In this document: one piece after another, positions 18,696 to 54,615 of the stretch | How positions within the stretch are numbered: the first letter of the stretch is position 1 | Layout: every line of letters begins with the position of its first letter | Assembly: GCA_000002445.1 (NCBI GenBank) | Contig: CM000208.1 | Coordinates: 3,990,026 to 4,054,025, forward strand | Direction: 5' to 3' | DNA from: Trypanosoma brucei | Taxonomy: Eukaryota | Length of the DNA: 64,000 bases | Translations under genes and position numbers: made by a program | The notes under the pieces: generated by a model | What the model was told of the DNA's origin: nothing | Database searches by the model: none | What the model saw: the letters and a program-made list of their open reading frames with translations, nothing else

Positions 18696-20201
18696 ATGAC
18701 AGCAGCAATCCAATTTCTTGTAGCAGCATGCGCCGTGATAAGCGTCGCACGACCCGACGACACTAAGCCAGCCAATGTCATGACAACAGCAACTTCGGCG
18801 GCACTCGTTCTTTCAGACGTAACAGCTCAGATGGCGGAGGCCCTAACACCTGCGTCAGCAGAAGCAGACAAACTAAGACAGGCGCTCGCGCAAGCGGCCG
18901 GAGCAGCACTTTACGACAATAGTCGACTCGGCACGGCGGCACTACCGGTCGCAATAGTTCTCTCTAAGCGGCTCACAGCATGGACGCAAGGGAGGCTGGA
19001 ACTGGCACCGCGACTAATACGAGCAGTGGCCAAACTAGCAAATCTCACAGGCCACCAATTCGATGCGGCATTGATGCAGGACCTCCGTATACCGAATATT
19101 GACACCGGAAACACGGACCCACAAACGGCAGCGGCGGCGTCAAATCTCTATGTAACAGCTGGAGACAACACTTTCAGCAGCAAATCAGTAACAGCTTTCA
19201 ACAAAGAGCGCGCCCAAAAACACGAGTGGATAAAGCCCGCGAACTTCGAAAGCTTAAATATATTCCTTCCAAATCCGAAAACCAGGGACACGGGGACGGC
19301 AGCAGCGCCGACCATCGGCAAAGAACAAAACGACGGCGGCAACAAGTGCAAAAATGGAGACGTGACAACAGACGCCGACGAGCAAGGCGGCGAAATCTGT
19401 GTCATTGGAGGAACGGTCGTCAATACGGAAAAGATAACAATAACCAAGGGAAGTAACAACTTCGGAAACCCCGAGGGCGAGGCTTTCAACGACGGCAATT
19501 TCGAACATCACGCGCGGAGCGCCGTCGCGACAGCCTACGCAGTATTAAAGGAGCTAACACCACCGCCCACCTTCGACATCGATAATGCAGAAAGCTTTAA
19601 AGCTGACACCGACTTCAAGGCGGCGGTAGGCGCAATTTTTGGCAATCTCGACAAAAAAACGAGCTTAGCAGCAGACGACGACAAAATTACAACCATAATC
19701 AAAAACATCTACGGAGAAGGTACCGAAACGAAAACCAAGTTCTGGGAGAAACTGAAAACGATCAAAAAGCCATCAAAAATACTGGGCGAAGATGCTTCAG
19801 GGGATATAACAACCGTATCGGACTTAGGCACAGCATTCAAACTGCTTTTGGAGACAAAAGTCAAGGAAAGCAAACACAAACAACAAGCGGCCGCCCCTGT
19901 AACCGCGACTACAGGAAGTGAGAAAGAAACAGAAACCAAAAAAGAAGACGAATGCAAAAAGCATAAAACAAGCGAAGATTGCAAAAAGGAAAAAGGTTGT
20001 GATTTTGATGATAAAAAGCCTGACGGTGAAAGATGCTTTCCTAAAGTTGAAACTGAAAGAAAAGATGAAAAGTCATTTTCTAGCAATTTGAGAGTTTCTG
20101 TTTCTCAGATATTTGCTGCGTTCTTTTGGTTGCATTTTAATCATTTTTGTTTCTATAAAATTTTTATGATTTTTGCTACTCTGATATATTTTAACACGTA
20201 A
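18696..20201 (+). CDS. VSG: VSG (type B N-terminal domain) with an atypical read-through C-terminus
   Basis: Start MTAAIQFLVAACAVISVA lies inside the 538-aa ORF 18585-20201. The N-terminal domain is long and Ala-rich. The C-terminal domain reads ECKKHKTSEDCKKEKGCDFDDKKPDGERCFPK. The stop at the canonical position is missing, so the ORF continues through a hydrophobic tail and through a perfect 16-mer TGATATATTTTAACAC at 20181-20196. Confidence 0.7.
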   Translation: MTAAIQFLVAACAVISVARPDDTKPANVMTTATSAALVLSDVTAQMAEALTPASAEADKLRQALAQAAGAALYDNSRLGTAALPVAIVLSKRLTAWTQGRLELAPRLIRAVAKLANLTGHQFDAALMQDLRIPNIDTGNTDPQTAAAASNLYVTAGDNTFSSKSVTAFNKERAQKHEWIKPANFESLNIFLPNPKTRDTGTAAAPTIGKEQNDGGNKCKNGDVTTDADEQGGEICVIGGTVVNTEKITITKGSNNFGNPEGEAFNDGNFEHHARSAVATAYAVLKELTPPPTFDIDNAESFKADTDFKAAVGAIFGNLDKKTSLAADDDKITTIIKNIYGEGTETKTKFWEKLKTIKKPSKILGEDASGDITTVSDLGTAFKLLLETKVKESKHKQQAAAPVTATTGSEKETETKKEDECKKHKTSEDCKKEKGCDFDDKKPDGERCFPKVETERKDEKSFSSNLRVSVSQIFAAFFWLHFNHFCFYKIFMIFATLIYFNT

Positions 20202-21284: not shown

Positions 21285-21375
21285 TTATGAATTTCAGTTG
21301 TGGTGATAATAATGATAATAATAATAATAGGAGAGTGTTGTGAGAATGTATATACTAATGTTATAAGGACATTAG
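21285..21375 (+). repeat. 70-bp repeat (1 copy). This is the 5' boundary of duplicated cassette copy 1.
   Basis: gtggtgataataatgataataataataataggagagtgttgtgagaatgtatatactaatgttataaggacattagtc. Confidence 0.85.
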
Positions 21376-23172
21376 TCAAGACTAAATAGGTGGGGAAAAT
21401 AGAACTAGACAAAACAGTGGTTAGTGTGCTGTAGGAGTAAATTAGTGGGAGATTACAAGAAATATTATTGAAAGAAACTTAAAGAATACAAATGAAGAGG
21501 GGGGTATGGAATTGTGCAGTTTAAGGCGTACAGACGGCGGCAACAATAACTATACACGTGAACACGATAGAGGAGAAAGTAAGAGAGACAAAATCTACTG
21601 TACAGAACAAGTGAAGGCACTACATTATACGCATTGATAGAAACAGTATGCAAAAATGAGGAAATAAAAAGCGGAGTAAAATAAGAAAAGGTGTGGCAAA
21701 TGACCACGGATGACAGTAGCACAGAAGGAGAAAGGGATTTTGCTCCACATTTCACACATAAATTGATAGATGCTACTGAAGAGATAATACTGATTTTAAT
21801 TTTAAATTTGATGATGCATCCTAATATTACGATTTAAAGATTGTAATGTACGAAGGGGTAATAATTTTCAGGTCACATTGAAGTCTTTTATCATATATTT
21901 TAACAGCCAATAACATTTGTGGCCAATAATTTAAGATAAGTAAATTTTTAAGCTTTAACTACTGATGAACTAGTGTGGACAGAAAAAATTAACAAAAAGC
22001 AGAAGCTGCTTAAAATGAAACATTTATGTACCTTTATAGAAAAATTGTGAAGTACGATAAGTTTTCAATTACTCTAATACAATTCAGCATTGGTGTACTG
22101 GCTAAAAACTAAGACCTTTGAAGGAGCGAGTAATTCATATAAAATTGGTTGCCAATGCACAACAATTAAGAATATTAATAAAACAATAGCATAGATAAAG
22201 GCGCTTCTTGTCCACAAATTTCCTAGGCTTAACATTCGACGAGCCAACTTGTAGCGAAGCAAAAACAAGAAGGAGGGAAAATCGTATCCGTGAACAATTA
22301 ACACCGTTACTTTGTTTTTCCAGGAGCATAGATTAAACTGTATAAAATTGAACCAACTAGCAGCCAAAATGGTTAAAGTGTAGATACAGAAAGTTTTCAA
22401 ATAATTAGAGACATAGAGGATTGAATGAGGGAGCGTATATGGAAATTTAATAGATGATGACAAATACGTGACAAAATGTCATAAATGGAAGTAGATTGGA
22501 GTTTTAATTACAAAGTGAACTGGAACCTATCAACAATTGCTTCTCCGCTAAAAAAAAGACGTATCAAAAATAAGTCCAGTATCAGTATCGAACACAAAAA
22601 AATAAAAGTCATAGAAAATGCAAAAACTCTCATAATATATGAAGCGCAACTAAATAAAAGATTATCTCCAGTTGTCGAACGAGAAATACAAGCTTAAGCA
22701 ATGAGGACTGCAATGGAATCGGCCGGCAGACAGAAAGGGGTTAGAAAGAGGTGGGTGATCTTAGTAGCGTAAATCGTTTTGAAACAAGTACTAAGAGGTA
22801 TGATCACTGGAAAAGATATTCCTGTGGTGTGATGGCCTGCAAGTGTGGGAAATCAAATAAGTTTAACATAGAATAAATAGAGGAGATAAGTTCAATAGAA
22901 GAGAAAGTTTCTTCCTTAATTAGACGAATAAATTTAAAATAACAGCAGAATTTAACAAGAGTCTGAAAAAAATGCAACCAGAACAAAAACTTCCCCCTGA
23001 CGAAATCACAGGCAACCTTGGAAAACCAAACCAGAACAGAGTTACTCGTCAATGCTATCAATTCGAATACCAAAGAAGTAAGAGACACTTTTCCTGTTTT
23101 TTAAAAACAAAAAGAAGCACCTAAAGGCAACTCAGCACGACCTCAAACCAGACGTTAATACAGTAAGGACGC

Positions 23173-24665
23173 ATGGCGGCTAGCAGGCTAACGGTAGTTC
23201 TCGTCTGTTACTATATCGCAGGGCAAACATCGGCCCAAACCACGGAAGACACTGCAAACAGCGCCTCTAAAACGCCCTGTACACTAAATGCATACTACAG
23301 AGCTATAGAAAGCAAACTAACAAGTTGGATAAACGACGCAGCAGCCGCGCCGCAAAAATTGAACCTGCAGCTAAATGAATTGCAGTTGGCGGCGCTAAAA
23401 CACGCAGGCACAAAAAAAGGGGTTTCGTACACAGTACTAGCGGCAATCATCCGAAGGCGCCAAGCAGGCGCGATCACCTACACACAAACGGCAGTACCAA
23501 AGTTTGCAGCGGCCCTAGAACTAGTAGCCACAAAAAGGGCAGAAACTCTAGTCTTAACAGGCGCAGCGGCTGCTACCACATCATCAGCGGTTAAACACGA
23601 GCAGGCGACCGCCGAACTTACCAAAGTATTGATGCAGGGAACCGGCAACAACAACGTCGGCTGCAAAGTAACGACAACGCCTACTATAGTAACTCAAACA
23701 AACTGCATTTCAGAGGCGACGGACGTCACTAACGCACAGAAAATAGCAGACAACCTCAAGACATGAAAAAAATGGCGATAATAAAGCAGACGGCCATGAC
23801 GCTACCCGAAGTAACCGCGCTCATAGAGGCACGAGGAACGATCAACAATCCCTCTCAATGGCTAGCCGGCACCAGCGCAACTCACTGCGAGCAGAATGCC
23901 AGCCCACAAGGCGCGACCGAAGCGCAACACGCCGTAGCGGCCCAGAAAATAAAGCTAACTGCAAAGACCACACCAACAATCGAAACGCTAGCAGACCTCA
24001 CACAAGCTCAACAGCAACAGCAACCTGCCGGCACCGCCGACACAACAGCGCTACTAACAAGCGACAGCGACCTAGCAACGGCTCTAACAGCAGCAACAGC
24101 GGCACAAAGCGAACAGCCGGGAACACTAGCGACCGAAGCACTAGAGGCCCTAGCAGGGGAGCCAGAGGCCACGGACATGTACAACTTTATGCGGCAAAGC
24201 ACAGGAGCAGGAAGCAAAAAGACCCCAACAGCAAAAGAGGTTGCAAATTTAGTTTTTGGCACTGCAACAGCCACAGTAGACAAAGCCTTTTTGCAACCCC
24301 TCAGCACGGACGCAGTTTCTATCCCAACAGCCGGCAACGACATCAAAACGAACATAAAAGCAATTGCAGTCCAAGAAGGTTTCGAACAAGCAATGGCTTA
24401 TTACTATGTTCAGAACATGCAAAAGCTAACAAAAGCTGTAGAAGGAGTCAAAAAAGAAGAAAAAGAAAAAGCAGATGCAACAGAAAAAACAGAAGAAAAG
24501 AAAGACGGGGAGACAAAAGAGGAGTGTACAGGCACCGTTGAAACTGATTGTGACAAGACAAAATGCACTTGGAATAAGGAAAAGAATGAGTGCAAAGTCA
24601 AAGAAAGTGCATATATTTCATCTGTGACTAAAGTCCCTCTTTTGCTTGCATTTTTGCTTCTATAA
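23173..24665 (+). pseudogene. VSG: VSG, copy 1 of a tandemly duplicated cassette; single-base frameshift near 23757
   Basis: ORF 23173-23766 (MAASRLTVVLVCYYIAGQTSA...) joins ORF 23763-24665 in the +1 frame. The sequence ...ctcaagacatgaaaaaaatg has lost a g relative to copy 2 (ctcaaggacatgaaaaaaatg). The C-terminal half is nearly identical to copy 2 and ends VTKVPLLLAFLLL. Confidence 0.9.
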
Positions 24666-24954
24666 TTAAGTTTTTAAAAGATTTTTGATCAATCTTATGA
24701 AACTCATAAAATTTGGTATTTTGACAGGATTTTCTAAAAAGGTGCAAATTAAGAAATTTTGAGAAAAAAAGTTAACATTTTCTCAAATATGTAAGAAACT
24801 GTCCTTTGGATGCAACATAATATGGTGATAATGCATTCAAAGAGATTAAAGTTATAAGAATGTTGCTATTTTGGTTCATATTATTTTATTTGTGTACATT
24901 AAGAGAAATTTACGGTTATCATAGCAATAGTTATAGCATCAAGAAAGAAATATA

Positions 24955-25245
24955 AGTAGTGACACTGATAACACTGATGAAACTGATGATGATAATGATA
25001 GGAGAGTGTTGTGAGTGTGCATATACAAATATTATAATAAGAGCAGTAATAATAATAATGATAATGATGATGATAATAATAGGAGAGTGTTGTGAGTGTG
25101 CATATACAAATATTATAATAAGAGCAGTAATAATAATAATAATGATAATGATAATAGTAATGATAATAATAATGATGATAATAATAATGATGATAGGAGA
25201 GTGTTGTGAGTGTGTATATACTAATGTTATAAGGACATTAGTCAA
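24955..25245 (+). repeat. 70-bp repeats (3 copies). This is the 5' boundary of duplicated cassette copy 2.
   Basis: The unit ggagagtgttgtgagtgtgcatatacaaatattataataagagcagtaataataataatgataatga occurs three times. Confidence 0.9.
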
Positions 25246-27038
25246 GACTAAATAGGTGGGGAAAATAGAACTAGACAAAACAGTGGTTAGTGTGCTGTAG
25301 GAGTAAATTAGTGGGAGATTACAAGAAATATTATTGAAAGAAACTTAAAGAATACAAATGAAGAGGGGGGTATGGAATTGTGCAGTTTAAGGCGTACAGA
25401 CGGCGGCAACAATAACTATACACGTGAACACGATAGAGGAGAAAGTAAGAGAGACAAAATCTACTGTACAGAACAAGTGAAGGCACTACATTATACGCAT
25501 TGATAGAAACAGTATGCAAAAATGAGGAAATAAAAAGCGGAGTAAAATAAGAAAAGGTGTGGCAAATGACCACGGATGACAGTAGCACAGAAGGAGAAAG
25601 GGATTTTGCTCCACATTTCACACATAAATTGATAGATGCTACTGAAGAGATAATACTGATTTTAATTTTAAATTTGATGATGCATCCTAATATTACGATT
25701 TAAAGATTGTAATGTACGAAGGGGTAATAATTTTCAGGTCACATTGAAGTCTTTTATCATATATTTTAACAGCCAATAACATTTGTGGCCAATAATTTAA
25801 GATAAGTAAATTTTTAAGCTTTAACTACTGATGAACTAGTGTGGACAGAAAAAATTAACAAAAAGCAGAAGCTGCTTAAAATGAAACATTTATGTACCTT
25901 TATAGAAAAATTGTGAAGTACGATAAGTTTTCAATTACTCTAATACAATTCAGCATTGGTATACTGGCTAAAAACTAAGACCTTTGAAGGAGCGAGTAAT
26001 CCATATAAAATTGGTTTCCAATGCACAACTAATTAATAATATTAATAAAACAATAGCATAGATAAAGGCGCTTCCTGTCCACAAATTTCCTAGGCTTAAC
26101 ATTCGACGAGCCAACTTGTAGCGAAGCAAAAACAAGAAGGAGGGAAAATCGTATCCGTGAACAATTAACACCGTTACTTTGTTTTTCCAGGAGCATAGAT
26201 TAAACTGTATAAAATTGAACCAACTAGCAGCCAAAATGGTTAAAGTGTAGATACAGAAAGTTTTCAAATAATTAGAGATATAGATGATTGAATGAGGTAG
26301 CGTATATGGAAATTTAATAGATGATGACAAATACGTGACAAAATGTCATAAATGGAAGTAGATTGGAGTTTTAATTACAAAGTGAACTGGAACCTATCAA
26401 CAATTGCTTCTCCGCTAAAAAAAAGACGTATCAAAAATAAGTCCAGTATCAGTATCGAACACAAAAAAATAAAAGTCATAGAAAATGCAAAAACTCTCAT
26501 AATATATGAAGCGCAACTAAATAAAAGATTATCTCCAGTTGTCGAACGAGAAATACAAGCTTAAGCAATGAGGACTGCAATGGAATCGGCCGGCAGACAG
26601 AAAGGGGTTAGAACGAGGTGGGTGATCTTAGTAGCGTAAATCGTTTTGAAACAAGTACTAAGAGGTATGATCACTGGAAAAGATATTCCTGTGGTGTGAT
26701 GGCCTGCAAGTGTGCGAAATCAAATAACTTTAACATAGAATAAATAGAGGAGATAAGTTCAATAGAAGAGAAAGTTTCTTCCTTAATTAGACGAATAAAT
26801 TTAAAATAACAGCAGAATTTAACAAGAGTCTGAAAAAAATGCAACCAGAACAAAAACTTCCCCCTGACGAAATCACAGGCAACCTTGGAAAACCAAACCA
26901 GAACAGAGTTACTCGTCGATGCTATCAATTCGAATACCAAAGAAGTAAGAGACACTTTTCCTGTTTTTTAAAAACAAAAAGAAGGCCGTAGAGAGAGTTC
27001 AGCACTCGGTGGAAGCTGGATTATTACACTCATACAAA

Positions 27039-28532
27039 ATGCCAACAAAAAGGCTCGCGTTAGTTCTCGTCTTCTGCTATCTCACAGACCAAACGACATG
27101 TGAAACAACGGAAGACACTGCAAACCGCGCCGCCAAAACGCCCTGTACACTAAGTGCATACTACAGAGCTATAGAAACCAAACTAACAAGCTGGATAAAC
27201 GAAGCAGCAGCCGCGCCGCAAAAATTGAACCTGCAGCTAAATGAATTGCAGTTGGCGGCGCTAAAGCACGCAGGCACAACCAAAGGAATTTCGTACACAG
27301 TACTAGCGGCAATCATCCGAAGGCGCCAAGCAGGCGCGATCACCTACACACAAACGGCAGTACCAAAGTTTGCAGCGGCCCTAGAACTAGTAGCAGCAAA
27401 AAGGGCAGAAACTCTAGTCTTAACAGGCGCAGCGGCTGCTACCACATCATCAGCGGTTAAACACGAGAAGGCAACCGCCGCACTCACAAAAGTATTGATA
27501 CAGGGCAGCGGCAGCAACAACGTCGGCTGCAAAGTAACGGCAACGCCTACTATAGTAACTCAAAAGAGCTGCGATTCAGAGGGGACGGCAATAACCAACG
27601 CACAAAAAATAGCAGAGAACCTCAAGGACATGAAAAAAATGGCGATAATAAAGCAGACGGCCATGACGCTACCCGAAGTAACCGCGCTCATAGAGGCACG
27701 AGGAACCATCGACGACGCCTCCCAATGGCAAACAGGAACAGGCGAACCTCACTGCGAACAGAATGGAAGCCCACAGGCCGCAAGCGCAGCACAGCACGCC
27801 GTATCAGCACAACAAATAAAACTAACTGCAAAAGCCACACCAACAATCGCAGCGCTAGCAGACCTCGCACAAGCGCAACAGCAACAGCAGCCTGCCAACC
27901 GCGCCGACACAACAGCGCTACTAACAAGCGACAGCGACCTAGCAACGGCTCTAACAGCAGCAACAGCGGCACAAAGCGAACAGCCGGGAACACTAGCGAA
28001 CGAAGCGCTGGAGGCCCTAGCAGGGGAACCAGAGGCCACGGCCATGTACAACTTTATGCAGCAAAGCACAGGAGCAGGAAGCAAAAAGACCCCAACAGCA
28101 AAAGAGGTTGCAAATTTAGTTTTTGGCACTGCAACAGCCACAGTAGACAAAGCCTTTTTGCAACCCCTCAGCACGGACGCAGTTTCTATCCCAACAGCCG
28201 GCAACGACATCAAAACGAACATAAAAGCAATTGCAGTCCAAGAAGGTTTCGAACAAGCAATGGCTTATTACTATGTTCAGAACATGCAAAAGCTAACAAA
28301 AGCTGTAGAAGGAGTCAAAAAAGAAGAAAAAGAAAAAGCAGATGCAACAGAAAAAACAGAAGAAAAGAAAGACGGGGAGAAAAAAGAGGAGTGTACAGGC
28401 ACCGTTGAAACTGATTGTGACAAGACAAAATGCACTTGGAATAAGGAAAAGAATGAGTGCAAAGTCAAAGAAAGTGCATATATTTCATCTGTGACTAAAG
28501 TCCCTCTTTTGCTTGCATTTTTGCTTCTATAA
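27039..28532 (+). CDS. VSG: VSG, intact (copy 2 of the tandem duplication), about 497 aa
   Basis: Uninterrupted ORF. Signal peptide MPTKRLALVLVFCYLTDQTTC, type A-like N-terminal domain, C-terminal domain ECTGTVETDCDKTKCTWNKEKNECKVKE, and GPI signal SAYISSVTKVPLLLAFLLL. The upstream 1.8 kb (25245-27008) duplicates 21375-23172. Confidence 0.9.
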   Translation: MPTKRLALVLVFCYLTDQTTCETTEDTANRAAKTPCTLSAYYRAIETKLTSWINEAAAAPQKLNLQLNELQLAALKHAGTTKGISYTVLAAIIRRRQAGAITYTQTAVPKFAAALELVAAKRAETLVLTGAAAATTSSAVKHEKATAALTKVLIQGSGSNNVGCKVTATPTIVTQKSCDSEGTAITNAQKIAENLKDMKKMAIIKQTAMTLPEVTALIEARGTIDDASQWQTGTGEPHCEQNGSPQAASAAQHAVSAQQIKLTAKATPTIAALADLAQAQQQQQPANRADTTALLTSDSDLATALTAATAAQSEQPGTLANEALEALAGEPEATAMYNFMQQSTGAGSKKTPTAKEVANLVFGTATATVDKAFLQPLSTDAVSIPTAGNDIKTNIKAIAVQEGFEQAMAYYYVQNMQKLTKAVEGVKKEEKEKADATEKTEEKKDGEKKEECTGTVETDCDKTKCTWNKEKNECKVKESAYISSVTKVPLLLAFLLL

Positions 28533-28814
28533 TTAAGTTTTTAAAAGATTTTTGATCAATCTTATGAAACTCATAAAATTTGGTATTTTGACAGGATTTT
28601 CTAAAAAGGTGCAAATTAAGAAATTTTGAGAAAAAAAGTTAACATTTTCTCAAATATGTAAGAAACTGTCCTTTGGATGCAACATAATATGGTGATAATG
28701 CATTCAAAGAGATTAAAGTTATAAGAATGTTGCTATTTTGGTTCATATTATTTTATTTGTGTACATTAAGAGAAATTTACGGTTATCATAGCAATAGTTA
28801 TAGCATCAAGAAAG

Positions 28815-28995
28815 AAATATAAGTAGTGACACTGATAACACTGATGAAACTGATGATGATAATGATAGGAGAGTGTTGTGAGTGTGCATATACAAATATT
28901 ATAATAAGAGCAGTAATAATAATAATGATAATGATGATGATAATAATAGGAGAGTGTTGTGAGTGTGTATATACTAATATTATAATAAAAGTGGT
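28815..28995 (+). repeat. 70-bp repeats (2 copies)
   Basis: gatgatgataatgataggagagtgttgtgagtgtgcatatacaaatattataataagagcagtaataat... occurs twice. Confidence 0.9.
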
Positions 28996-30402
28996 GGTCA
29001 ATACAAAATGGAACCCAAATAGAGGCACAAAAACAAGAGAAAGTGTCTAATTACAGTAAGTTAGTAGGAAATTGAAAGAAGTAGATGTAGTGTGAACGGT
29101 TTCAAGCGCAAAAATGGCAATGCGTACAATCTTACAAAAGAAGATGATAGAAACGACAATCAGACAGAGAAAGAATGCAGTGTACTGGCAAAAGGATGTC
29201 GCTGTGCTTTCCGTACAGAAAGCTACAGAAAAATAAAAGGAAAAAGGGAATGAAATAACTGAATATTAAATACCAGCAAACAAAGCAGGAGAAAATGAAA
29301 CAGGAGGAGAGGATATTGGTTACGTGGTTTTATAATATGATGGCATATCCTAGTATCAAGCTGTGAATAAGCATAAGATGAATTGTATAGGTGTGATAGA
29401 ATGTAAAAGTTTTTTCTTTTTAAGTATAGTAATAATGGCAATATTTTGTTGAATAATATTATTTTATTGAAGATGTGTTTTAGAAAGAAGGATACTAATG
29501 GATTGTAGTAGAAAACAAAACATGAATAAAACTAAAAAAACCTGCTAGTATAGCTTATATGTGAAGAAATGGAAAGATTTTGTGAGGTAGAGAGAATTAA
29601 TGGCAATACTTTATCAACTCCGTGTTATCATACAAAACAGAAGTTAAGAGCTTTAAAAGAACGAATAATTAACATAAGAGTTGATGCTCTTTCGGAGCTG
29701 ATAGAACGGACTAACAAAGTGTGGATAAATCACTTTTAGCGCCGAACCCACTCAAAATTAAACGAAGACGATACAAAACATTAGCATCTGGGAAAAAATA
29801 GAGACCGACATTTGGACACGCGAGCGAGACGCACTAACGGTATCTTTTTATTCCAAGACAAAACAAAGCTCCGGATTAACAGATTATAATCAACTGCAGT
29901 GTGCAAATGACATATGTTTAGATATAGATATATAATGCTATAAATTAGATTTGAAGTGTAATTTTTTTGCGCAACTAAGTGTTGGTTTGAACCGCTACTG
30001 AGCAACCGTAGAACACTGATATTCAAACTTTATTTCCCCTTTACAATACTCCAGTAAACGGCCGCGAGTTGCGACATCCATCATTGGTTGAACATTTGAC
30101 TATATCACTGTTTGTTTTAGACATGATAATAAGAAAAGTAAGTTGCAGCTAGTCTTTGGGTGCAACCCAAAAAAAGAAATGGAACCTGAGGTCAAAACCC
30201 TAGAACAGCCGAGAAGATAGAACACACATCAGCAGTGCACTTTACTCAAACTCAAGCCTTTTTTTCGCGGAGACGAAACACTCACTTTGCAGCGATCAAC
30301 CCAAAGTAAGTAGACTACATAGGTTGTTCTTTCAAGGTTCTGACGTCAATAACGCAGCTTCATTTTGTAAACAGCATTACTTCACGAAGAGTAACGCTAG
30401 AG

Positions 30403-32013
30403 GTGCAGCAAGAGATGCACAAGTCCAAGATATTCAACCTCATAACTAAAATTCTGCTGACTCTTGCAGTCATCAAAACCATCGAGTCAGCGAGCAAGGG
30501 CCCGATAACACATGCAGCGTGGAGCCCGCTCTGCACACTGAGCAAAGATAAGCAAAAGCTATACAACAGGGCAAACAAACTTCAAGACGACATCAGCAAC
30601 TTCTTCCAAACTGCGGCGAAGGCGTCCATTAAAGCGGCAATCGTCGCGGTCAAACTAAACTCAGCAGATGCAATGAAAGCGGCGATGGGTCTACAAGCAA
30701 AAATAAAGGCAGATGTGACTGCGAAAATGGCTGCAGCTGAGCAGTGTCGCACAATATCAACGGTGGTGACGCTGAGGTCAGCTTACTTACACGGGCGGAT
30801 AGCTGAATTCATCGAAATGATGACAGCCATGAGGGGAAAGACCAACGAGCACGCCTGTTTAAGCAAGCAAGGCGACGGTACCGACAGAGCCGCAGGCGAG
30901 ACGATCACCAAGCAACAAGCGACCTGCAAGCTTCATTCGGAGGAACTAACAAAACATAGCGAGGAGCTAACCGAACTCACGGCAACAGGATACCCAAAAC
31001 TAACACTGCCCACGGGCCTCACGACCAGCGAACAAGGAGGAGACACCAACCCCAACTGCATTTTCCTAACGACAACCGCAAACGAGCTAAACGGCAACGG
31101 CGGTTTCAAAGAAGCGATACCGCTGGCGGCGGGGTACTTGCTTAGAAAAGAGGACATGACCGCAAACTCAAAACAGGCGATTAATCAACTTCAAACCGTT
31201 GATGAGCCGGCAAGCGCCAAAACGACTGTAAGGCCCTACGTAGAACTTTGGAAGGCGTTCAAGCAACTGACAAACTGCGAAGCGATGTTCAGCGCGGCGT
31301 ACACACTGCCAACAGCGGAAGCATTAGTGGACAGCCCGGAAGTCAAAACGGCAATAAAGAATCACTTCCTACGAAAAGAAGGCCAGTATGAAGACAGTAA
31401 AGACAGCAAGGACGTCAACCCGATAGTAAAGCGTTTGTATAAACCAGACGATGAACACTATCCCAAAAAGTTCTGGCAGGAAACCGCCAAAAAGGACACA
31501 CCCCAAGCAGCCACTGGGAAAGCAGAGCTTTCTAAACTAGACGACATAGTGACTGAAGAAGAGTTAGCCCAGGTTCTGAGCTATTACACAAACATGCAGA
31601 TCCAAAATTTACACAAAGAACTAAAAGAAGCTCAAGAAAAAGCCTCACAGGCGAACCAGAGCGACGCTGCAGCCAAAGCAGCAGAAGACGCTTGCAATAA
31701 ACTAGATAACGAAGAAAAATGCAACAACGAGAAAAAGTGCAGTTATGACGATTCTAAGGAAAGTGGCAAAAAGTGCAAATATAATGCCACAAAAGCAAAA
31801 TCAAAAGTAAATGGTGTCCCTGTAACACAAACTCAAGATGGAGGAGCAATAACTGTAAACTGTGGCCAACATGCCGACAAGACTAAATGTGAGGAAAAAA
31901 CAAGGGAAAAACAACCCCTGTTTGTGTATGGAGAAAAGGCAAAGAGGGTGAACCTGATCAAGATAAAGAAATGTGCCGAAATGGTAGTTTCGTCAATAAA
32001 AAATTTACTCTGA
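30403..32013 (+). CDS. VSG: VSG (type A N-terminal domain). The C-terminal domain is frameshifted; the canonical end continues in another frame to about 32080.
   Basis: 536-aa ORF with signal peptide MQQEMHKSKIFNLITKILLTLAVIKTIESA. The C-terminus ...KCEEKTREKQPLFVYGEKAKRVNLIKIKKCAEMVVSSIKNLL* is out of frame. The +2 frame reads ...CVWRKGKEGEPDQDKEMCRNGSFVNKKFTLIAAVFMSFVCF. Confidence 0.85.
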   Translation: MQQEMHKSKIFNLITKILLTLAVIKTIESASKGPITHAAWSPLCTLSKDKQKLYNRANKLQDDISNFFQTAAKASIKAAIVAVKLNSADAMKAAMGLQAKIKADVTAKMAAAEQCRTISTVVTLRSAYLHGRIAEFIEMMTAMRGKTNEHACLSKQGDGTDRAAGETITKQQATCKLHSEELTKHSEELTELTATGYPKLTLPTGLTTSEQGGDTNPNCIFLTTTANELNGNGGFKEAIPLAAGYLLRKEDMTANSKQAINQLQTVDEPASAKTTVRPYVELWKAFKQLTNCEAMFSAAYTLPTAEALVDSPEVKTAIKNHFLRKEGQYEDSKDSKDVNPIVKRLYKPDDEHYPKKFWQETAKKDTPQAATGKAELSKLDDIVTEEELAQVLSYYTNMQIQNLHKELKEAQEKASQANQSDAAAKAAEDACNKLDNEEKCNNEKKCSYDDSKESGKKCKYNATKAKSKVNGVPVTQTQDGGAITVNCGQHADKTKCEEKTREKQPLFVYGEKAKRVNLIKIKKCAEMVVSSIKNLL

Positions 32014-32254
32014 TTGCTGCTGTCTTTATGAGTTTTGTATGCTTTTATAATTCAAGCGTTTTGCGTATTTTTGCTCAATTTTGTGGAATTTATGAAGTTT
32101 GATATACTTTAACGCTTTTGTAAAGCTTTTGAAAAATATGAAATTTTTAAAATATTGTGGCTTATGAGTATAAAGTAGTAGAGTGATATGGTATGAAAGA
32201 TGGGTAAAATTCTAAATTTTTCATATTTTGTTTATTGTAGGGATGTTGCTTAAG

Positions 32255-32430
32255 GTCATTGTAGGAATAATGATGATGATAAGATAGTTGTGAGTGTGTA
32301 TATATACGAATTTTATGATAGGAGCAGTAATAATGATAATAATGATAATAATAATAGTGATAATAATAATAGGAGAGTGTTGTGAGTGTGTATATATACG
32401 GATATTATAATAAGAGCAATGATGGCAGAG
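32255..32430 (+). repeat. 70-bp repeats (about 2 copies)
   Basis: ggaataatgatgatgataagatagttgtgagtgtgtatatatacgaattttatgataggagcagtaataatgataat...aggagagtgttgtgagtgtgtatatatacggatattataataagagc. Confidence 0.85.
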
Positions 32431-33336
32431 AAAAAATTTACAGTCTAATTAGAGGCATTAAACAATGATAAGAGTGTAGTAGGAAGAAGTGAGTGACACA
32501 GAATGTCCAGTAGCGGATAATAATATCACTTTAGAGGTAATAACTAAAGGAGAGCGGAATACAGCTACTTTAACAGTAGAGATAAAACATGAACCAATAA
32601 CATGAAGTAATATTCGTCCACTATCATGAAAAGACGCAGGCCAAAAGGTAGGAGCCTCTGTATCTACTTCCTTGTACGTAACGGCAGAAACTCAGATGGT
32701 ACTGATAAAAGGTAAAGGAAAATGTGTCCCTAAAAAGGTAAGAAAACGCAAATAAATTAACGGAAGATCTTTAAGAAGTGTGGTAAATTAATTAAGATAT
32801 CCAATCAATTTCGTATAAGTATAAACACCAGACATTAATACATTTGTTGAAGAAAATAACCCATGTAAAAGTTTTTGTTGATACGAAGCTGAAATAATGA
32901 TTGATAAACAAAACGGTAAAAAAATACTTTGTGGTTCAAAAATTAAACGTATTAAAAGTCATAAAACTAAACTGACGTCATATAATCACAAACGGAAACA
33001 ATAAGTCGATAGGGTCTTCCAGAAAGAGAAGTGTTACCTTGTTATTCTTAGTCAAACCGAACCTTCAAATTAAAAGAAGATAGAAGAAAGTGAGAACCTC
33101 AAATTTAGATGCAATAGATGCAGATAGAAAGATGTGGCTTAAAAAATCTCAATATTGTTGAAGATAAAATCTCGCTCATAGTTGCAATTCTTCTCATGAA
33201 GTTTTTGTTTTGCATCTGCACTTGATGTTCCGTCTGGGAGCTCATCTGATATTCCCACTTTTTCTCATCCTCACACGTTGGGCGACTAAATTCTGAAAGA
33301 ACGACCATATACAGCCTAAGACAAAAACCTTTCAAG

Positions 33337-34875
33337 ATGACGGCACTTCGAACAGCAGCCGTTTGTGTTATTGTATTACTATCCATGCGACCCGGAAGTG
33401 ATGGGGCAGGCCAAGCCGGTTTGCTCAAAACGGTGTGGCAACCAGTATGCGGACTTTCAGAAGAACTAGATGTTGTCGGCGGAAATAGCCTGCGAATAAT
33501 AGATGACATACTCTCCGCGGCAACAAACCAAACCAACACCGCGATTCGCTTGCGCATCTACGCCCTAAAAAACATTGAGGAGAAGCCTGTCAAGGAGATC
33601 AGTGCTTTAGCGTCCTACTATGCCGCGCGCGGCCACGCAGCGATAATGGACATGCAAGCTACAGAGTTAGCAAAACATATAGCCGCGGTGCGGTCAGCCA
33701 CATACCTGAAGGGCAGAATCGACGAAGGGATAAACATGCTAGAACAGGTCAAAGGTGGGCAAAACGGCTGCCTAGTCGCCACCGCAGCTGACGACACCAC
33801 CGAGGTCAGAACAGGGACAAGGATAGGAGGCGTCGAATGCAAGCTGAAGCTGAGCGAACTTTCCAAGACAACATGGAGCAAAGCCAACATCGACGAAACC
33901 GGCTACCCAAACTTAAAGGAAGGAGGAACAACGTCGGGAACTGCCGTCCAGCCAACCGATAGCAACAACGTGTGCCGGCTGTTACACCACTCGAGCGCAC
34001 ATGGCCTAGGCAACAGTGCAAACCTAGACACCGCAGTCAAGAGCCTCGCCGGCTACATAACAACGGGCGCGACTGCAGCGCCAACACTAGCAGCAAGGGC
34101 AAGCTTAACAACAACTAAAACAAGCGCCACAGGCGCGTGGGTCGACGCCTACGAACGCGCCGGCAAATATCGGCCGAAATTAAACACAGAGTACTCAAGC
34201 GATACGAGCCCCCTGGACAAGCGCCCAGATTTAGTAAAAGCCGTACGTTCAACGGAAACAAAACTTGAAGGTGAAGGTGAAGAACCAGCAGCAAAGCTAG
34301 TAACAGCTTATTTTGGGGGCACAGAACCAAATAAACTAGACGCTTTCCTGAAACTCGTCGAACAAGACAAGATACCCAAAGGCATCGCCGGGTTACAAAA
34401 AGACACTTTCATCGGGCAGATCACAAACACCGAGCAACTAAACCAAATTCTTTCTTATTATGTGTACCATGCCAGCCTCAACTATAATGCACTGCAGAAA
34501 AAACTAGATGAAGCAACAAAGAAAAAAGACACAAAAGCAGCGGAAGATACCTGCAACAAAATAAAGGATGAAACAGCCTGCAGCAACAAGCCTTTTTGCA
34601 CCTATAACACAACAGAAACCGACGAAAATAAAAAGTGCAAATTTGATGAAACAAAAGCAAAATCAAAAGTAAATGGTGTCCCTGTAACACAAACTCAAGA
34701 TGGAGGAGCAATAACTGTAAACTGTGGCCAACATGCCGACAAGACTAAATGTGAGGAAAAAACAAGGGAAAAACAACCCCTGTTTGTGTATGGAGAAAAG
34801 GCAAAGAGGGTGAACCTGATCAAGATAAAGAAATGTGCCGAAATGGTAGTTTCGTCAATAAAAAATTTACTCTGA
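33337..34875 (+). CDS. VSG: VSG (type A N-terminal domain). Its 3' end is identical to that of the VSG at 30403 and carries the same frameshifted C-terminal domain.
   Basis: 512-aa ORF with signal peptide MTALRTAAVCVIVLLSMRPGSDGA. Its N-terminal domain is unrelated to that of 30403-32013, but from about 34650 the nucleotide sequence equals 31790 onward (...KAKSKVNGVPVTQTQDGGAITVNCGQHADKTKCEEKTREKQPLFVYGEKAKRVNLIKIKKCAEMVVSSIKNLL*). Confidence 0.85.
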   Translation: MTALRTAAVCVIVLLSMRPGSDGAGQAGLLKTVWQPVCGLSEELDVVGGNSLRIIDDILSAATNQTNTAIRLRIYALKNIEEKPVKEISALASYYAARGHAAIMDMQATELAKHIAAVRSATYLKGRIDEGINMLEQVKGGQNGCLVATAADDTTEVRTGTRIGGVECKLKLSELSKTTWSKANIDETGYPNLKEGGTTSGTAVQPTDSNNVCRLLHHSSAHGLGNSANLDTAVKSLAGYITTGATAAPTLAARASLTTTKTSATGAWVDAYERAGKYRPKLNTEYSSDTSPLDKRPDLVKAVRSTETKLEGEGEEPAAKLVTAYFGGTEPNKLDAFLKLVEQDKIPKGIAGLQKDTFIGQITNTEQLNQILSYYVYHASLNYNALQKKLDEATKKKDTKAAEDTCNKIKDETACSNKPFCTYNTTETDENKKCKFDETKAKSKVNGVPVTQTQDGGAITVNCGQHADKTKCEEKTREKQPLFVYGEKAKRVNLIKIKKCAEMVVSSIKNLL

Positions 34876-35119
34876 TTGCTGCTGTCTTTATGAGTTTTGT
34901 ATGCTTTTATAATTCAAGCGTTTTGCGTATTTTTGCTCAATTTTGTGGAATTTATGAAGTTTGATATACTTTAACGCTTTTGTAAAGCTTTTGAAAAATA
35001 TGAAATTTTTAAAATATTGTGGCTTATGAGTATAAAGTAGTAGAGTGATATGGTATGAAAGATGGGTAAAATTCTAAATTTTTCATATTTTGTTTATTGT
35101 AGGGATGTTGCTTAAGGTC

Positions 35120-35200
35120 ATTGTAGGAATAATGATGATGATAAGATAGTTGTGAGTGTGTATATATACGAATAATATAATAAGAGCAATGATGGTGTAT
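35120..35200 (+). repeat. 70-bp repeat
   Basis: ggaataatgatgatgataagatagttgtgagtgtgtatatatacgaataatataataagagcaatgatgg. Confidence 0.8.
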
Positions 35201-35945
35201 AATAACTACAAACCTAAGAGAAAGGCACTTAAAACAGTGGCAAAGTGAAATGGGAGTACATAATGGAGTCAAATAGAATACAAGAAATATTATTATTTAA
35301 AAGTTGCAGAAACGGAAAGTAAAGATGATAGAATGTGGTCATGTTAAAACATATACGGGACTATTGCATCATGATATCGACAGACTTGATGAAGGGTACA
35401 ATTAAGGAAAGAGTGAGTCCAGTATAGAATTATAATGCAGGCGCTACTTAATCATTAGTAATATAAGCATAAGAAAAGAGGAAGAAACATAATATGGAAT
35501 GAGACAATGCAATTAGCAAAAGCACAACGCAGAAAGAAAATTGTACAGGGGGAGATTGTGCTCCACATTTCACACACAAATGGATAGATGCAATTTCGGA
35601 AATGGTGGAGGCAGTGGTGTTCAACTTTATTGTGCAGTAACATGTCAAACATTAAACTCAGGTAGCTGAAAATGATGGCCTGCACATGGGTGTTTTCCAT
35701 AAAAGCAGAAAATCAGGAGCTCTAGAGTCCATTTGTTACCTGATTGTGAGTGTTTAGTTAGAGTGCTTCAAACGAATGTAAATTTTAATTTGAGGTGTAA
35801 AGAATACCGTGCCAGAGGAAATGGCAAATCACAAACAAAAAACATCAAAATGACTTACTTGGTTAACCATAATGAACTCAACTTTAACTGTCACTTTGGT
35901 AAGTGGACCTAAATCAAAGTCAATTACCAGGTTCATCAGCGGATT

Positions 35946-45785: not shown

Positions 45786-48700
45786 TATGAAACATCACTG
45801 GTGAAACCGGCCACCTCATCATGGGACCCAGTGCCTAGTACTTCATCCAGGAGGAAGCTAAGTGCTCGCATTAAACCAGGCCCGACAGGATTGTGGTGGG
45901 CAAAAAGCTTTCGGTGACCAGAGAATGAGAAAGCAGCGGTATAGGCATCTGCGGTGAAGAAATACATTAGACTAATCTTCTGCACGTGCAAGTGTGCCTA
46001 TATTGGGATCCATAGGCTTATATTACTTCTTATAGTAGATTTGGAACGGAATTCCTGTCCTGTCCTTTGTGGAGCCCAGTGGAATTCTGTGGATTTCTCC
46101 AGGGCAAAGTGGAACGCCTTAGAGAAGAAACTCCACGAGTATATGGTAGTCTTCTGTCTATTGCGGGAGATTCACTTGGCAGTAGAAGAATACTGCGCAT
46201 TGAAAATTAGTAGATACCAACACATGGTGTCACATTCTCCGCATGGTGGTAAGGTATTAATTCTAGTGAGAGAACGCGTGAAAATCATCTAAGGTCCGAA
46301 GGAGGAAGCACTGCCGGAAAGAGTCTTGGAAAGCTAATGTTTTCATCTGATCTAATGTTAACTATAAAATCAGCTTACTTCACACGAAAGAAAATGTCAT
46401 TACCTCCACGGTTGAGTGCCTTGAAAGCTCAACAGTATCAGCGGTGATAGGATTTGATACAAACGCACATCACGAGTTATGGGACCCACTTCGCCCAAAT
46501 GGTACAGCAGGAGAATGCATTATAGGCTGATGTCTACGAAATGATATCAAAATTTCAAATGATGGCACCCCAACGAGAAGAATGACTCACACTGCAACCA
46601 TGTCGTCTCCAGATGTTACGATGTACAGAGACTGCGAATTCACAAGATGGAAGGCAAGCATCAGTCCGGATATTGACCACTACTGGATAACGTTTGAGGT
46701 ATGTATTGGGATTGATGTAGAAATGATCGCCATCACTAAGTCACGAAGTACGTTGCATGTTTTTAACGAAGCAAATTGGCAGGAGTTTCGAAAAGTGTAT
46801 GATGCCACAAAGGTGAAAAATTAAGGAATCGAAAAAGAAAGTGGATGCCATGAATGAGGCAGTGACTAAAGTCATTCGCACAGCAGCAAAGAAAACGATA
46901 ACGAAATGTAAGTGAGTATTGCTACAGTTCCGGACACAAGAACTGGCCGAAATGGACATAAAAATAAGAGAATGTACAAATGAAAAGCACAGAGATATTC
47001 TTATACACAAGAGAAGGAAGGTTTTTGCCGAAAATTCCCTACAGCGATGGAAGGAAAATGCGTTGAAGATGTCAGTGATTGACACAAAAAGTTGGAGTGT
47101 AGTCATGTCGGTGTATGCACTAAGGTCACTGTCATCTCCGGTTATGGTAGTGAATGACCACCCCCTAACACGCAGACAGCAAGCCAATAAGCTAGCATAG
47201 ACGTATTGAGAGAGCGGTTGACAAGAGCACTAGATGCTCCTCCCATGAGTACACCATATCGAGTGAGCGTAGAATTCGCACCAATAACGATTTAAGAACA
47301 TGAGACAGCACCAAAAGACCTCTATTCAGGCACTGCCACCGGTAAAGACAATACACATTGTGAACTGTTGAATTAATCAGGACGCCGTAGCAAGAAATGT
47401 GTCATACAGTTCTTCAACTGCGCCCTACAGGGACACAAGGTGCCGAAGAAGTGGAATCAGGAAGTTATCGTCTAACTGCTCAAACACGACAAACCGGTCA
47501 AGTGTATATCATCGTTTCGGCACATCACGGTCACTAGCATGCACTGTAAGTTCATGGACAGGATTGTAGAGAGACGCATACAGGACACAGTAGAATGTAA
47601 GCTACAAATACAGTAAGCTGGTTTTCGTCCAGAGAGGTCTACGTTAGAGGCCCTGATGGCACTCACAGACTTCGTGACACATAGAATAGCAGGAGAGACA
47701 GCCGCAGCGGTATTCATATATTATGTGGGGGCATTTGACTCTGTAGAGCACAGGTATATAATAGAATCACTAAAAAAATATGAGGTAGACATGCACCTCA
47801 TTACATGTGTTGCAAATTTCCTGGATGGATGGACTGCAGTAGCAAGAATAAACAACACCCTTTCAAATAAAATACAATTCACATGTGGTGTTCCGCAAGG
47901 GTCTGTATTGGGGCCGTTACTATTCATTATCTCAATGCACTCCTTTAGCGCGAAATTGAATGCCATACCAGTCCTTAAACACTGCTTCTTCGCAGAAGAC
48001 CTCACAATAGTATGCTCTTACACTGACCGGAAAGCTATTAGGAAGACACTACAAACAGGATGAGATTGCATAGCAAGCTGCTCGACAGAGCATTAAATAG
48101 AGGTGTCCGCCGATAAAACGGAGTACACGTTCTTCAAGGTTAGAAAGACAGAGACTCATTACATCTAATGATGTGAGAACACAGATTAAATGAGACGAGA
48201 AATCCCATAATCCTTGGGGTGACGATGCAGCCACACAGTGGTGTAAGAAAACATGCTCACAACATACAAACAGCAGCAAATACAAAATTAATGAAACTAC
48301 GGGCCGTTGCATTACCTGAATGAAGGGTGAGCAAAGAAAGCTTCCGAGCATTTTACGTAGCCTAATCCAGATAAAGTTATGTTATGGGATAGCTGCGTGG
48401 TGGTTAAATGCTTCTTCATCTATCAAGAAGAAGCTTGAACGAGTACAAACGCAGGCTTCACATGTTGTCGCGGGTATTTCAAAGTGCGCGAATCGGCATG
48501 ATGTTATGAAGGAGTCTCACCTTCACACGATAGATGATATTGATCATAGACGAACAATAGAATACTGTTGAACAAGGAAGGTGAACGGTAAGGCATCAGC
48601 CGATACAGTGGGGAAAATGTTCCCACCCAGTCATCCAATACACACGCACCTGCAAAGCGTATCACACTTGTATGAGGAAGTAGACAGACCGGAAAAGTCA

Positions 48701-54544: not shown

Positions 54545-54615
54545 TAGGGTTACAACAATAATAATAATGATGATAATTGGAGAATGTTTTGAGTGTGTTT
54601 ATACTAATATTATAA
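54545..54615 (+). repeat. 70-bp repeat (1 copy). This is the 5' boundary of the duplicated telomeric-type cassette.
   Basis: aataataataatgatgataattggagaatgttttgagtgtgtttatactaatattataacaataattg. The same junction recurs at 60980-61045. Confidence 0.85.

What the first reader, a model, noticed from the sequence alone, without database searches (positions are those of the whole stretch)
31780..35200. Two unrelated VSGs share an identical 3' block, including the same frameshifted C-terminal domain, the downstream region and the 70-bp repeat
The VSGs at 30403 and 33337 have unrelated N-terminal domains. From ...TKAKSKVNGVPVTQTQDGG onward (31790 and 34660) they become nucleotide-identical through the stop, the 3' UTR and the following 70-bp repeat (32255 and 35120). 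The shared block contains a frameshift. The canonical C-terminus CVWRKGKEGEPDQDKEMCRNGSFVNKKFTLIAAVFMSFVCF is in the +2 frame, so both genes end in KIKKCAEMVVSSIKNLL* without a GPI signal. A defective 3' end has therefore been copied between neighbouring array genes by 3'-boundary gene conversion, or by duplication of a unit consisting of the 3' end and the next 70-bp repeat. This homogenises C-terminal domains while the N-terminal domains stay distinct. On activation, either gene would need 3' repair by conversion.
Basis: seen in the sequence. Interest (0 to 1): 0.5.

Follow-up and report, generated by a model that had tools for sequence, protein, structure and literature searches.

The report
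Two neighbouring VSGs share defective tail
Two adjacent silent surface-coat (VSG) genes of Trypanosoma brucei carry an identical 523-base 3' segment containing the same frameshift, which is a clear but ordinary example of the recombination known to shuffle this gene family.

Summary
Window 31789-32311 and 34651-35173 are identical over 523 nt with no mismatch or gap. The sequence on both sides of each copy is unrelated. The window is the telomeric end of a 4.05-Mb T. brucei brucei TREU927 chromosome, and the two genes are annotated as EAN78980.1 and EAN78981.1.

The shared block covers only the second cysteine subdomain of the C-terminal domain (CTD), the 3' UTR, the spacer and the head of the next 70-bp repeat. 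Its left edge lies in a conserved CTD linker motif. Its right edge lies inside a 70-bp repeat unit.

The block has at least three defects:
- a 1-nt loss in an A6 run, with the ancestral frame confirmed by 68 in-frame VSG homologues;
- no stop codon at the canonical position even after the frameshift is repaired;
- a degenerate 3'-UTR 16-mer.

The best explanation is a recent homologous-recombination event in the silent array, anchored on those two homology patches. It was either a short-tract conversion of the 3' block between neighbours, which I favour, or a replacement of a cassette in front of a duplicated 3' block. The window alone cannot separate these two.

The phenomenon is well known from work on 3' donation, N-terminal/C-terminal domain reassortment and array conversion. 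Interest is low.

The parts
30415..32013 (+). VSG1, silent array VSG (EAN78980.1 / XP_828092.1), 532 aa from the first ATG, with a frameshifted tail
   Evidence: ORF. Pfam PF00913 E=4e-94 and PF10659. Exact match to the TREU927 protein.
33337..34875 (+). VSG2, silent array VSG (EAN78981.1 / XP_828093.1), 512 aa, with the same frameshifted tail
   Evidence: ORF. Pfam PF00913 E=2e-102 and PF10659. 100% identical to P0001.
31789..32311 (+). Shared 3' block, copy 1: CTD linker and subdomain 2, 3' UTR, spacer and the head of the 70-bp repeat
   Evidence: 523-nt exact identity with 34651-35173.
34651..35173 (+). Shared 3' block, copy 2
   Evidence: 523-nt exact identity with 31789-32311.
31771..31796 (+). 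Left junction zone in VSG1: conserved CTD linker motif AAGTGCAAAT..ATG..ACAAAAGC (encodes KCK-Y/F-N/D-x-TKA). The last VSG1/VSG2 mismatch is at 31788. The equivalent zone in VSG2 is 34633-34658.
   Evidence: The motif is also present in a third VSG at 16405-16430 and none is expected by chance. Three-way alignment.
31895..31900 (+). Frameshift site in copy 1: an A6 run, a 1-nt loss relative to in-frame homologues (CEEENKGK). The same site in copy 2 is 34757-34762.
   Evidence: Three-frame translation. In-frame homologues P0008 and P0016-P0022. Adding one A restores the CTD frame.
31893..32045 (+). Ancestral coding frame (+2) of CTD subdomain 2 plus the GPI signal: GKNKGKTTPVCVWRKGKEGEPDQDKEMCRNGSFVNKKFTLIAAVFMSFVCF. 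It is not followed by a stop codon. Copy 2 is 34755-34907.
   Evidence: 68 in-frame hits at VSG C-termini, best 77% identity, E=3e-16. The repaired CTD scores better on PF10659. Read-through shown.
32100..32115 (+). Degenerate VSG 3'-UTR 16-mer TGATATACTTTAACGC (2 mismatches to TGATATATTTTAACAC). Copy 2 is 34962-34977.
   Evidence: Motif scan. No 9-mer within 1 mismatch.
32266..32427 (+). 70-bp repeat downstream of VSG1 and upstream of VSG2, two units. Identity with copy 2 ends after GTGAGTGTGTATATATACGAAT at 32311.
   Evidence: BLASTN to the 70-bp array at 57.4-61.1 kb. Gapped alignment. Sequence.
35128..35195 (+). 70-bp repeat downstream of VSG2, one unit. Its tail resembles the tail of unit 2 of copy 1.

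Best explanation
A single, very recent short-tract gene conversion (gap repair) occurred between two neighbouring silent VSG cassettes in a subtelomeric array of T. brucei TREU927.

The inferred sequence of events is as follows. A break in or near the fragile 70-bp/TAA-rich repeat between the two genes was resected upstream, through the unique spacer and 3' UTR. Resection continued until it reached the conserved CTD inter-subdomain linker (KKCK-x-x-x-TKA). The other end paired within the 70-bp repeat. Copying from the neighbour filled the gap, about 0.5 kb. Both genes now carry the same CTD subdomain 2, 3' UTR, spacer and 70-bp-repeat head, including its defects: a -1 frameshift, a lost stop codon and a degenerate 16-mer.

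The donor was probably VSG2 and the recipient VSG1. The consequence is that neither gene can make a GPI-anchored VSG as it stands. Their intact A-type N-terminal domains are usable only if a switch event supplies a functional 3' end (3' donation).

Shown: the identity, the boundaries, the frame defects and the homology at both junctions. Inferred: the break site, the direction of transfer, and that one event rather than two produced the pattern.
For: - The 523-nt exact identity is flanked on all four sides by sequence with no detectable similarity.
- The left edge lies in a linker motif conserved in three VSGs of the window.
- The right edge lies inside a 70-bp repeat unit.
- The tract is short and the partners are 2.86 kb apart, so one event suffices.
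- Patchy conversion and recombination at 70-bp repeats are visible elsewhere in the same window. The 3.87-kb tandem duplication has its endpoints in 70-bp repeats and a mosaic NTD interior. The telomeric VSG and its upstream pseudo-copy are also mosaic.
- Zero substitutions in the block, against 95.8% identity for the neighbouring duplication, implies a recent event.
- Lean on direction: the VSG2-type subdomain 1 is contiguous, in frame, with this type of subdomain 2 in Lister 427 VSG-736 (74% over 97 aa) and in P0018. The nearest full-length relative of VSG1 (P0085) has a different subdomain 2.
- Literature: conversions within coding sequences and ectopic conversion in arrays (PMC3467770); 3' donation rescuing damaged CTDs in TREU927 (PMC3708902); C-terminal bias of recombination (PMC13233330).
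Against: - The end state is identical to that expected from a tandem duplication followed by canonical cassette replacement, so the window cannot discriminate between them.
- The extra 70-bp unit at the middle repeat (2 units against 1) is what unequal crossover at 70-bp repeats produces, as seen in the neighbouring duplication. It needs an extra slippage step, or out-of-register pairing, under simple patch conversion.
- The direction of transfer rests on distant homologues. This subdomain 2 is paired with many subdomain-1 and NTD types.
- No T. brucei genome was searchable. A third, ectopic donor for one or both copies cannot be excluded.
Confidence: 0.5

Rival explanations
1. This is a two-step origin. 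First, a cassette was tandemly duplicated by unequal recombination between 70-bp repeats, giving two identical units. Then one unit underwent a canonical VSG cassette conversion from an ectopic donor, with its 5' limit in the 70-bp repeat and its 3' limit in the CTD linker. That conversion replaced the upstream region, the NTD and CTD subdomain 1, and left the recipient's 3' block in place. On this reading the shared block is the unconverted residue, the array equivalent of 3' donation.
For: - Both steps are documented kinds of event. Step 1 has a precedent about 3 kb upstream: 21306-25124 = 25169-28991, with endpoints in 70-bp repeats, flanks about 100% identical and an already mosaic NTD interior.
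- The middle 70-bp repeat has one more unit than the distal one, as in that duplication.
- The boundaries are exactly those of the canonical cassette.
- Published work describes ectopic conversion of individual VSGs between subtelomeres (PMC3467770).
Against: - It needs two events, both recent enough to leave 0/523 substitutions.
- It requires a much longer conversion tract, 2.3-2.9 kb of fully heterologous sequence.
- No second copy of either NTD was found among TREU927 proteins, although pseudogenes are not in those libraries.
Confidence: 0.35
2. Both genes acquired the block independently from a third copy elsewhere in the genome, so the block belongs to a dispersed 3'-end family.
For: This type of CTD subdomain 2 is widespread and is combined with many NTDs. 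Ectopic subtelomeric conversion is known.
Against: It needs two independent events with the same two breakpoints to the base at the left edge. There is no other copy in the 64-kb window. No identical in-frame or out-of-frame protein was found in the libraries; the best is 77%.
Confidence: 0.07
3. This is an assembly or finishing artefact. Reads from one 3' end were used for both genes, so the identity is overstated or one junction is chimeric.
For: Subtelomeric VSG arrays are hard to assemble, and this cannot be tested here.
Against: - Each copy has its own unique flanks on both sides and a different number of 70-bp units.
- The 523-nt repeat is shorter than a typical Sanger read (general knowledge of the method, not tested here).
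- Both genes are separately annotated in the GenBank record.
- Collapse of a repeat would give one copy, not two.
Confidence: 0.04
4. The identity reflects purifying selection on a functional non-coding element or hidden gene in the block.
For: None found.
Against: Perfect identity at every position, including a broken reading frame and a degenerate 16-mer, with abrupt edges at recombination-prone motifs, indicates copying rather than constraint. There is no other conserved copy in the window.
Confidence: 0.01

Closest known systems
3' donation during VSG switching in the expression site (Hall, Wang & Barry 2013, PMC3708902)
   Same: One VSG 3' end is combined with unrelated NTDs. The conversion boundary lies inside the CTD-coding region. 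It explains how genes with damaged CTDs can still be used.
   Different: In 3' donation the retained 3' end is the functional one of the active telomeric expression site, and the product is selected by expression. Here both partners are silent array genes, the shared 3' end is defective, and the block extends through the 3' UTR into the downstream 70-bp repeat.
Canonical VSG duplicative transposition cassette (upstream 70-bp repeat to the 3' end of the gene)
   Same: It uses the same two homology anchors, the 70-bp repeat and the conserved CTD/3' region.
   Different: The shared segment is the complement of the cassette: from the CTD anchor rightwards to the next 70-bp repeat. It is either the converted tract (mirror image) or the unconverted residue.
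NTD/CTD reassortment in the VSG family (no domain exclusion: Hutchinson et al. 2003 as cited in PMC9765701; Marcello & Barry 2007 from my own knowledge, paper not held)
   Same: The same CTD type is found behind unrelated NTDs. This subdomain 2 is found behind A- and B-type NTDs.
   Different: Those are family-level patterns at 50-80% identity. Here the event is caught fresh, at 100% DNA identity between physical neighbours, and the breakpoint lies between the two CTD subdomains.
Tandem cassette duplication by unequal recombination at 70-bp repeats (example in this window, 21306-28991)
   Same: The junction lies in a 70-bp repeat, the 3' block is identical in both copies, and the event is recent.
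   Different: In that case the whole unit, including the upstream region and most of the NTD, is shared. In the finding only 0.52 kb is shared.

Membership tests
T. brucei VSG gene (A-type) | A-type N-terminal domain (Pfam PF00913) | tested here: met
   E=4e-94 for VSG1 and 2e-102 for VSG2, over the full profile length.
T. brucei VSG gene (A-type) | VSG C-terminal domain with conserved cysteines (PF10659) | tested here: met
   E=3e-9 and 9e-11 as encoded. The repaired 86-aa fragment scores E=9e-15. There are two 4-Cys subdomains once the frame is repaired.
T. brucei VSG gene (A-type) | In-frame hydrophobic C-terminal GPI-anchor signal ending at a stop codon | tested here: not met
   The encoded tail ...KIKKCAEMVVSSIKNLL* is not hydrophobic (mean Kyte-Doolittle hydropathy 0.43, against about 2 for real signals). 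The signal lies in the +2 frame and lacks its stop codon. These are therefore atypical or pseudogene VSGs, not functional ones.
T. brucei VSG gene (A-type) | Conserved 3'-UTR 16-mer TGATATATTTTAACAC, essential for mRNA stability (PMC5698767) | tested here: not met
   2 mismatches in both copies. The telomeric VSG in the same window has a perfect copy.
T. brucei VSG gene (A-type) | 70-bp repeat upstream of the gene (array cassette structure) | tested here: met
   28850-28990 lies upstream of VSG1 and 32266-32427 upstream of VSG2.
Segmental gene conversion / non-allelic homologous recombination product | Abrupt switch from unrelated sequence to identity at both edges | tested here: met
Segmental gene conversion / non-allelic homologous recombination product | Breakpoints located in pre-existing homology between the partners | tested here: met
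   Left: the conserved linker motif. Right: the 70-bp repeat core.
Segmental gene conversion / non-allelic homologous recombination product | Non-reciprocal transfer: donor unchanged, recipient's original tract lost, and direction identified | not testable with these tools
   This needs the pre-event allele or orthologous loci. The orthologues of VSG1 in the protein libraries stop before the CTD. No contig was on record for the four related proteins looked up, and no T. brucei genome collection is among the DNA search tools.
Whole-cassette tandem duplication | Identity spanning the whole unit from one 70-bp repeat to the next | tested here: not met
   Only 0.52 of 2.86 kb is shared, and there is no similarity elsewhere.
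Retroelement (RIME/ingi) insertion | Element-specific sequence, poly(A) tail and target-site duplication | tested here: not met
   The block consists of VSG CTD coding sequence, a VSG 3' UTR and a 70-bp repeat. No flanking duplication is seen in the alignment.

The most novel reading that the evidence does not exclude
The segment from the CTD linker to the next 70-bp repeat may be a discrete mobile recombination module of silent arrays, the mirror image of the classical cassette. Breaks in 70-bp repeats inside arrays can be repaired in either direction, so this module would spread preferentially between neighbours. Defective 3' ends would then propagate and homogenise locally. That would systematically make array VSGs dependent on 3' donation and would shape the order in which they can be expressed.
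Probability: 0.08. Interest if true: 0.5.

Novelty: new member of a known kind. Interest (0 to 1): 0.2.

Why it matters
This is a base-pair-resolution snapshot of recombination acting on silent VSG array genes rather than on the expression site. Both junctions sit in the two homology patches that define VSG cassettes. It shows how a damaged 3' end can come to sit behind two intact N-terminal domains, and why much of the archive is usable only through 3' donation. It does not change current understanding. Its value is as a worked example, and as a marker locus for comparing strains to date and orient array conversions.

Tried and rejected
**Searches that found nothing**
1. A search for an in-frame copy of the block using a repaired 86-aa CTD found no word-sharing candidates. 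I used the +2-frame window peptide instead. It found only relatives at 77% identity or less, and no identical in-frame copy.
2. Attempts to fetch DNA around the genes or their homologues for synteny found nothing on record. I tried the window protein, P0001, P0013 and P0008.
3. The orthologues of VSG1 in EATRO1125 and Lister 427 are truncated before the CTD, so they say nothing about its original 3' end.
4. Marcello & Barry 2007 and Weirather et al. 2012 are not held in the library. What I say about them rests on my own knowledge.

**Explanations rejected**
- Chance, or generic CTD/3'-UTR conservation: other VSG 3' ends in the window are 66-74% alike.
- A simple unequal crossover between the two CTDs: this would carry the identity beyond the 70-bp repeat into the next cassette, and it does not.
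- A retroelement, and conservation by selection (see the rival explanations and membership tests).
- A long-read homopolymer error as the cause of the frameshift. From my own knowledge the TREU927 reference was sequenced by the Sanger method, where such errors are rare. Independently of the frameshift, the block has two further defects.
Full report
**What the window is**

The ORF at 33337-34875 is 100% identical over its full length to GenBank EAN78981.1 / XP_828093.1, annotated 'variant surface glycoprotein (VSG), putative [Trypanosoma brucei brucei TREU927]', on a 4,054,025-bp record. The ORF at 30415-32013 is EAN78980.1. The last gene of the window, 62140-63591, is EAN78982.1.

The window ends in (TTAGGG)n. 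It is therefore the telomeric end of a TREU927 megabase chromosome, made up of a silent VSG array on the + strand followed by a telomeric VSG. From my own knowledge, this reference genome was produced by Sanger sequencing.

**Check of the observation**

An exact, ungapped identity of 523 nt joins 31789-32311 to 34651-35173, at an offset of 2862. BLASTN reports 31768-32342 against 34630-35205 at 97.7%.

Outside this block the two cassettes have no detectable DNA similarity. This holds for the upstream regions plus NTD-coding parts (28989-31788 against 32437-34650) and for the sequence downstream of the two 70-bp repeats.

Apart from its 70-bp-repeat portion, the block has no other copy in the 64 kb. 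Other pairs of VSG 3' ends in the window reach only 66-74% identity over 200-470 nt. At the 95.8% identity of the neighbouring tandem duplication, 523 straight matches would have P ~2e-10.

**Anatomy of the block**

- *Left edge.* VSG1 and VSG2 share a 13-nt stretch, AAAAAGTGCAAAT (31768-31780 / 34630-34642). They then differ at five positions up to 31788 and are identical from 31789. This lies in a linker motif, AAGTGCAAAT..ATG..ACAAAAGC, which encodes KCK(Y/F)(N/D)xTKA. The motif also occurs in a third VSG at 16405, and none is expected by chance.
- *Position in the protein.* The breakpoint falls after the fourth cysteine of the first CTD subdomain. Only the inter-subdomain linker and the second 4-Cys subdomain are shared, not the whole CTD.
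- *Right edge.* Identity ends at 32311/35173, inside a 70-bp repeat unit, just after GTGAGTGTGTATATATACGAAT. Copy 1 continues with the rest of that unit and a second unit. Copy 2 has a single unit whose tail resembles the tail of unit 2 of copy 1. After that the sequences are unrelated.

**The defects**

1. Both ORFs read ...KCEEK|TREKQPLFVYGEKAKRVNLIKIKKCAEMVVSSIKNLL*. The +2 frame reads GKNKGKTTPVCVWRKGKEGEPDQDKEMCRNGSFVNKKFTLIAAVFMSFVCF (31893-32045). An exhaustive HMMER search with this out-of-frame peptide found 68 significant hits. Those examined align to the extreme C-terminus of 500-570-aa VSGs. The best is P0016...KCEEENKGKTTPVCGWRKGKDGEPDQDKEMCRNGSFLVNKKFALMVSAFVALLF, at 77% identity and E=3e-16. 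Lister 427 VSG-736 (P0008) shows the same segment in frame. The ancestral frame is therefore +2, and the lesion is a 1-nt loss at the A6 run 31895-31900 / 34757-34762. Adding one A restores the CTD, and the repaired fragment scores better on Pfam PF10659 than the encoded proteins do.
2. Even after that repair, the frame lacks a stop after ...FVCF and runs on for 18 codons (YNSSVLRIFAQFCGIYEV*) into the 16-mer.
3. The 3'-UTR 16-mer is TGATATACTTTAACGC, with 2 mismatches. No 9-mer-like element is present within one mismatch. The 16-mer is essential for VSG mRNA stability (PMC5698767).

The block is therefore a thoroughly degenerate 3' end. Every lesion is shared by the two copies, so the block was copied after it decayed.

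**The N-terminal domains**

Both NTDs are A-type (PF00913, E=4e-94 and 2e-102). They share 25% amino-acid identity across the domain. They are distant family members rather than 'unrelated', but they are unalignable at the DNA level. Both are uninterrupted.

**Mechanism**

The island of identity is bounded by the only two sequence patches that these cassettes have in common. This is the signature of homologous recombination anchored in limited homology.

A simple unequal crossover between the two CTDs is excluded. It would extend the identity past the 70-bp repeat into the next cassette.

Two routes give exactly the observed structure:

- **(H1) A single short-tract conversion, or gap repair.** About 0.5 kb is copied between neighbours. 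This would plausibly start from a break in the 70-bp/TAA repeat between the genes, resected leftwards to the CTD linker.
- **(H2) Tandem duplication followed by cassette replacement.** A cassette is duplicated by unequal recombination at 70-bp repeats. One unit is then replaced by a canonical cassette conversion (70-bp repeat to CTD linker). The shared block is what was left unconverted.

The same window shows that both kinds of process operate here:

- 21306-25124 = 25169-28991 is a 3.87-kb tandem duplication. Its endpoints lie in 70-bp repeats. Its flanks, including the 3' end, are about 100% identical, while the NTD interior is a mosaic of 66-98% identity.
- The telomeric VSG and a frameshifted copy about 6.4 kb upstream also show patchwise identity of 56-100%.

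I favour H1 at 0.5. It needs one event and a short tract, and the partners are 2.86 kb apart. H2 is at 0.35. It is helped by the extra 70-bp unit in the middle repeat, which parallels the neighbouring duplication.

The direction of transfer is weakly indicated. The VSG2-type subdomain 1 is contiguous, in frame, with this subdomain-2 type in VSG-736 (74% over 97 aa) and in P0018. The closest full-length relative of VSG1 (P0085, 40% identity) carries another subdomain-2 type. However, this subdomain 2 is combined with many partners.

An ectopic third donor (0.07) and an assembly artefact (0.04) cannot be excluded without the whole genome and the reads.

**Comparison with what is known**

- Retention of a 3' end while the NTD is exchanged, with the boundary inside the CTD, is the '3' donation' pattern. 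It was documented in this very strain in 57% of the unique expressed VSG sequences examined, and was proposed to allow use of genes with damaged CTDs (PMC3708902).
- A strong C-terminal bias of natural recombination events was reported recently (PMC13233330).
- Any CTD type can pair with any NTD type (PMC9765701).
- Ectopic conversion of single VSGs or blocks between subtelomeres, and conversions within coding sequences of silent genes, are described (PMC3467770).

This finding is an instance of those processes caught at 100% identity between neighbours in a silent array. Two minor points stand out: the junction lies between the two CTD subdomains, and the block runs into the downstream 70-bp repeat.

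As encoded, the two genes fail two defining features of a functional VSG, the in-frame GPI signal and the intact 16-mer. They are best described as atypical or pseudogene VSGs with intact NTDs, although GenBank annotates them as 'VSG, putative'.

**Verdict**

This is a new example of a known kind of event, not a new phenomenon. Interest is 0.2.

The most novel reading still open is that the segment from the CTD linker to the next 70-bp repeat is a preferentially spreading module that propagates defective 3' ends through arrays. That would need a genome-wide survey. I give it about 8%.

Noticed in passing
window 57364-64000: The window ends in a telomere, with (TTAGGG)n from about 63797. The last gene is an intact VSG (62140-63591, EAN78982.1) with a perfect 16-mer at 63643. 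It is preceded by about 3.7 kb of 70-bp repeats (57364-61100). No ORF of 200 aa or more lies between 43431 and 62140, so no ESAG-sized gene is apparent upstream of the 70-bp repeats. This looks like a telomeric VSG sitting directly behind a silent array.
   Followed up: partly
window 54554-57200 vs 60985-63600: A frameshifted pseudogene copy of the telomeric VSG, with about 1.1 kb of its upstream region, lies just upstream of the long 70-bp array. The upstream region is about 100% identical. The coding part is a mosaic of 56-100% identity per 100-nt block, which suggests repeated patch conversion or point-mutation clusters.
   Followed up: partly
window 21306-28991: A 3.87-kb tandem duplication of a whole VSG cassette has its endpoints inside 70-bp repeats: 1 unit before it, 3 at the junction and 2 after it. 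The flanks and the 3' end are about 100% identical, but the NTD interior is 66-98% identical in patches. One copy is an open 497-aa ORF and the other is disrupted.
   Followed up: yes
window 3790-4245: About 450 bp of pure (TAA)n is fused to a single 70-bp repeat core. This is a greatly expanded version of the triplet part of the repeat.
   Followed up: no
window 47656-48063: An ORF resembling a reverse-transcriptase fragment, by eye only (a FAEDL motif reminiscent of the RT catalytic motif). It suggests a degenerate ingi/DIRE-type retroelement in the 44-54 kb region, which has no ORF of 200 aa or more.
   Followed up: no
window 18696-20201: Another VSG whose reading frame runs through the normal stop into the 3' UTR and the perfect 16-mer (...FMIFATLIYFNT*). 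Lost or overrun stop codons are therefore not unique to the shared block.
   Followed up: no
window 30415-31500 (VSG1 NTD): The VSG1 NTD has orthologues at 91% and 95% identity to VSG1 in EATRO1125 (VSG 1125.1428) and Lister 427 (VSG 1889). Both are deposited as truncated proteins that end before the CTD. These strains could therefore reveal the 3' end before the event.
   Followed up: partly
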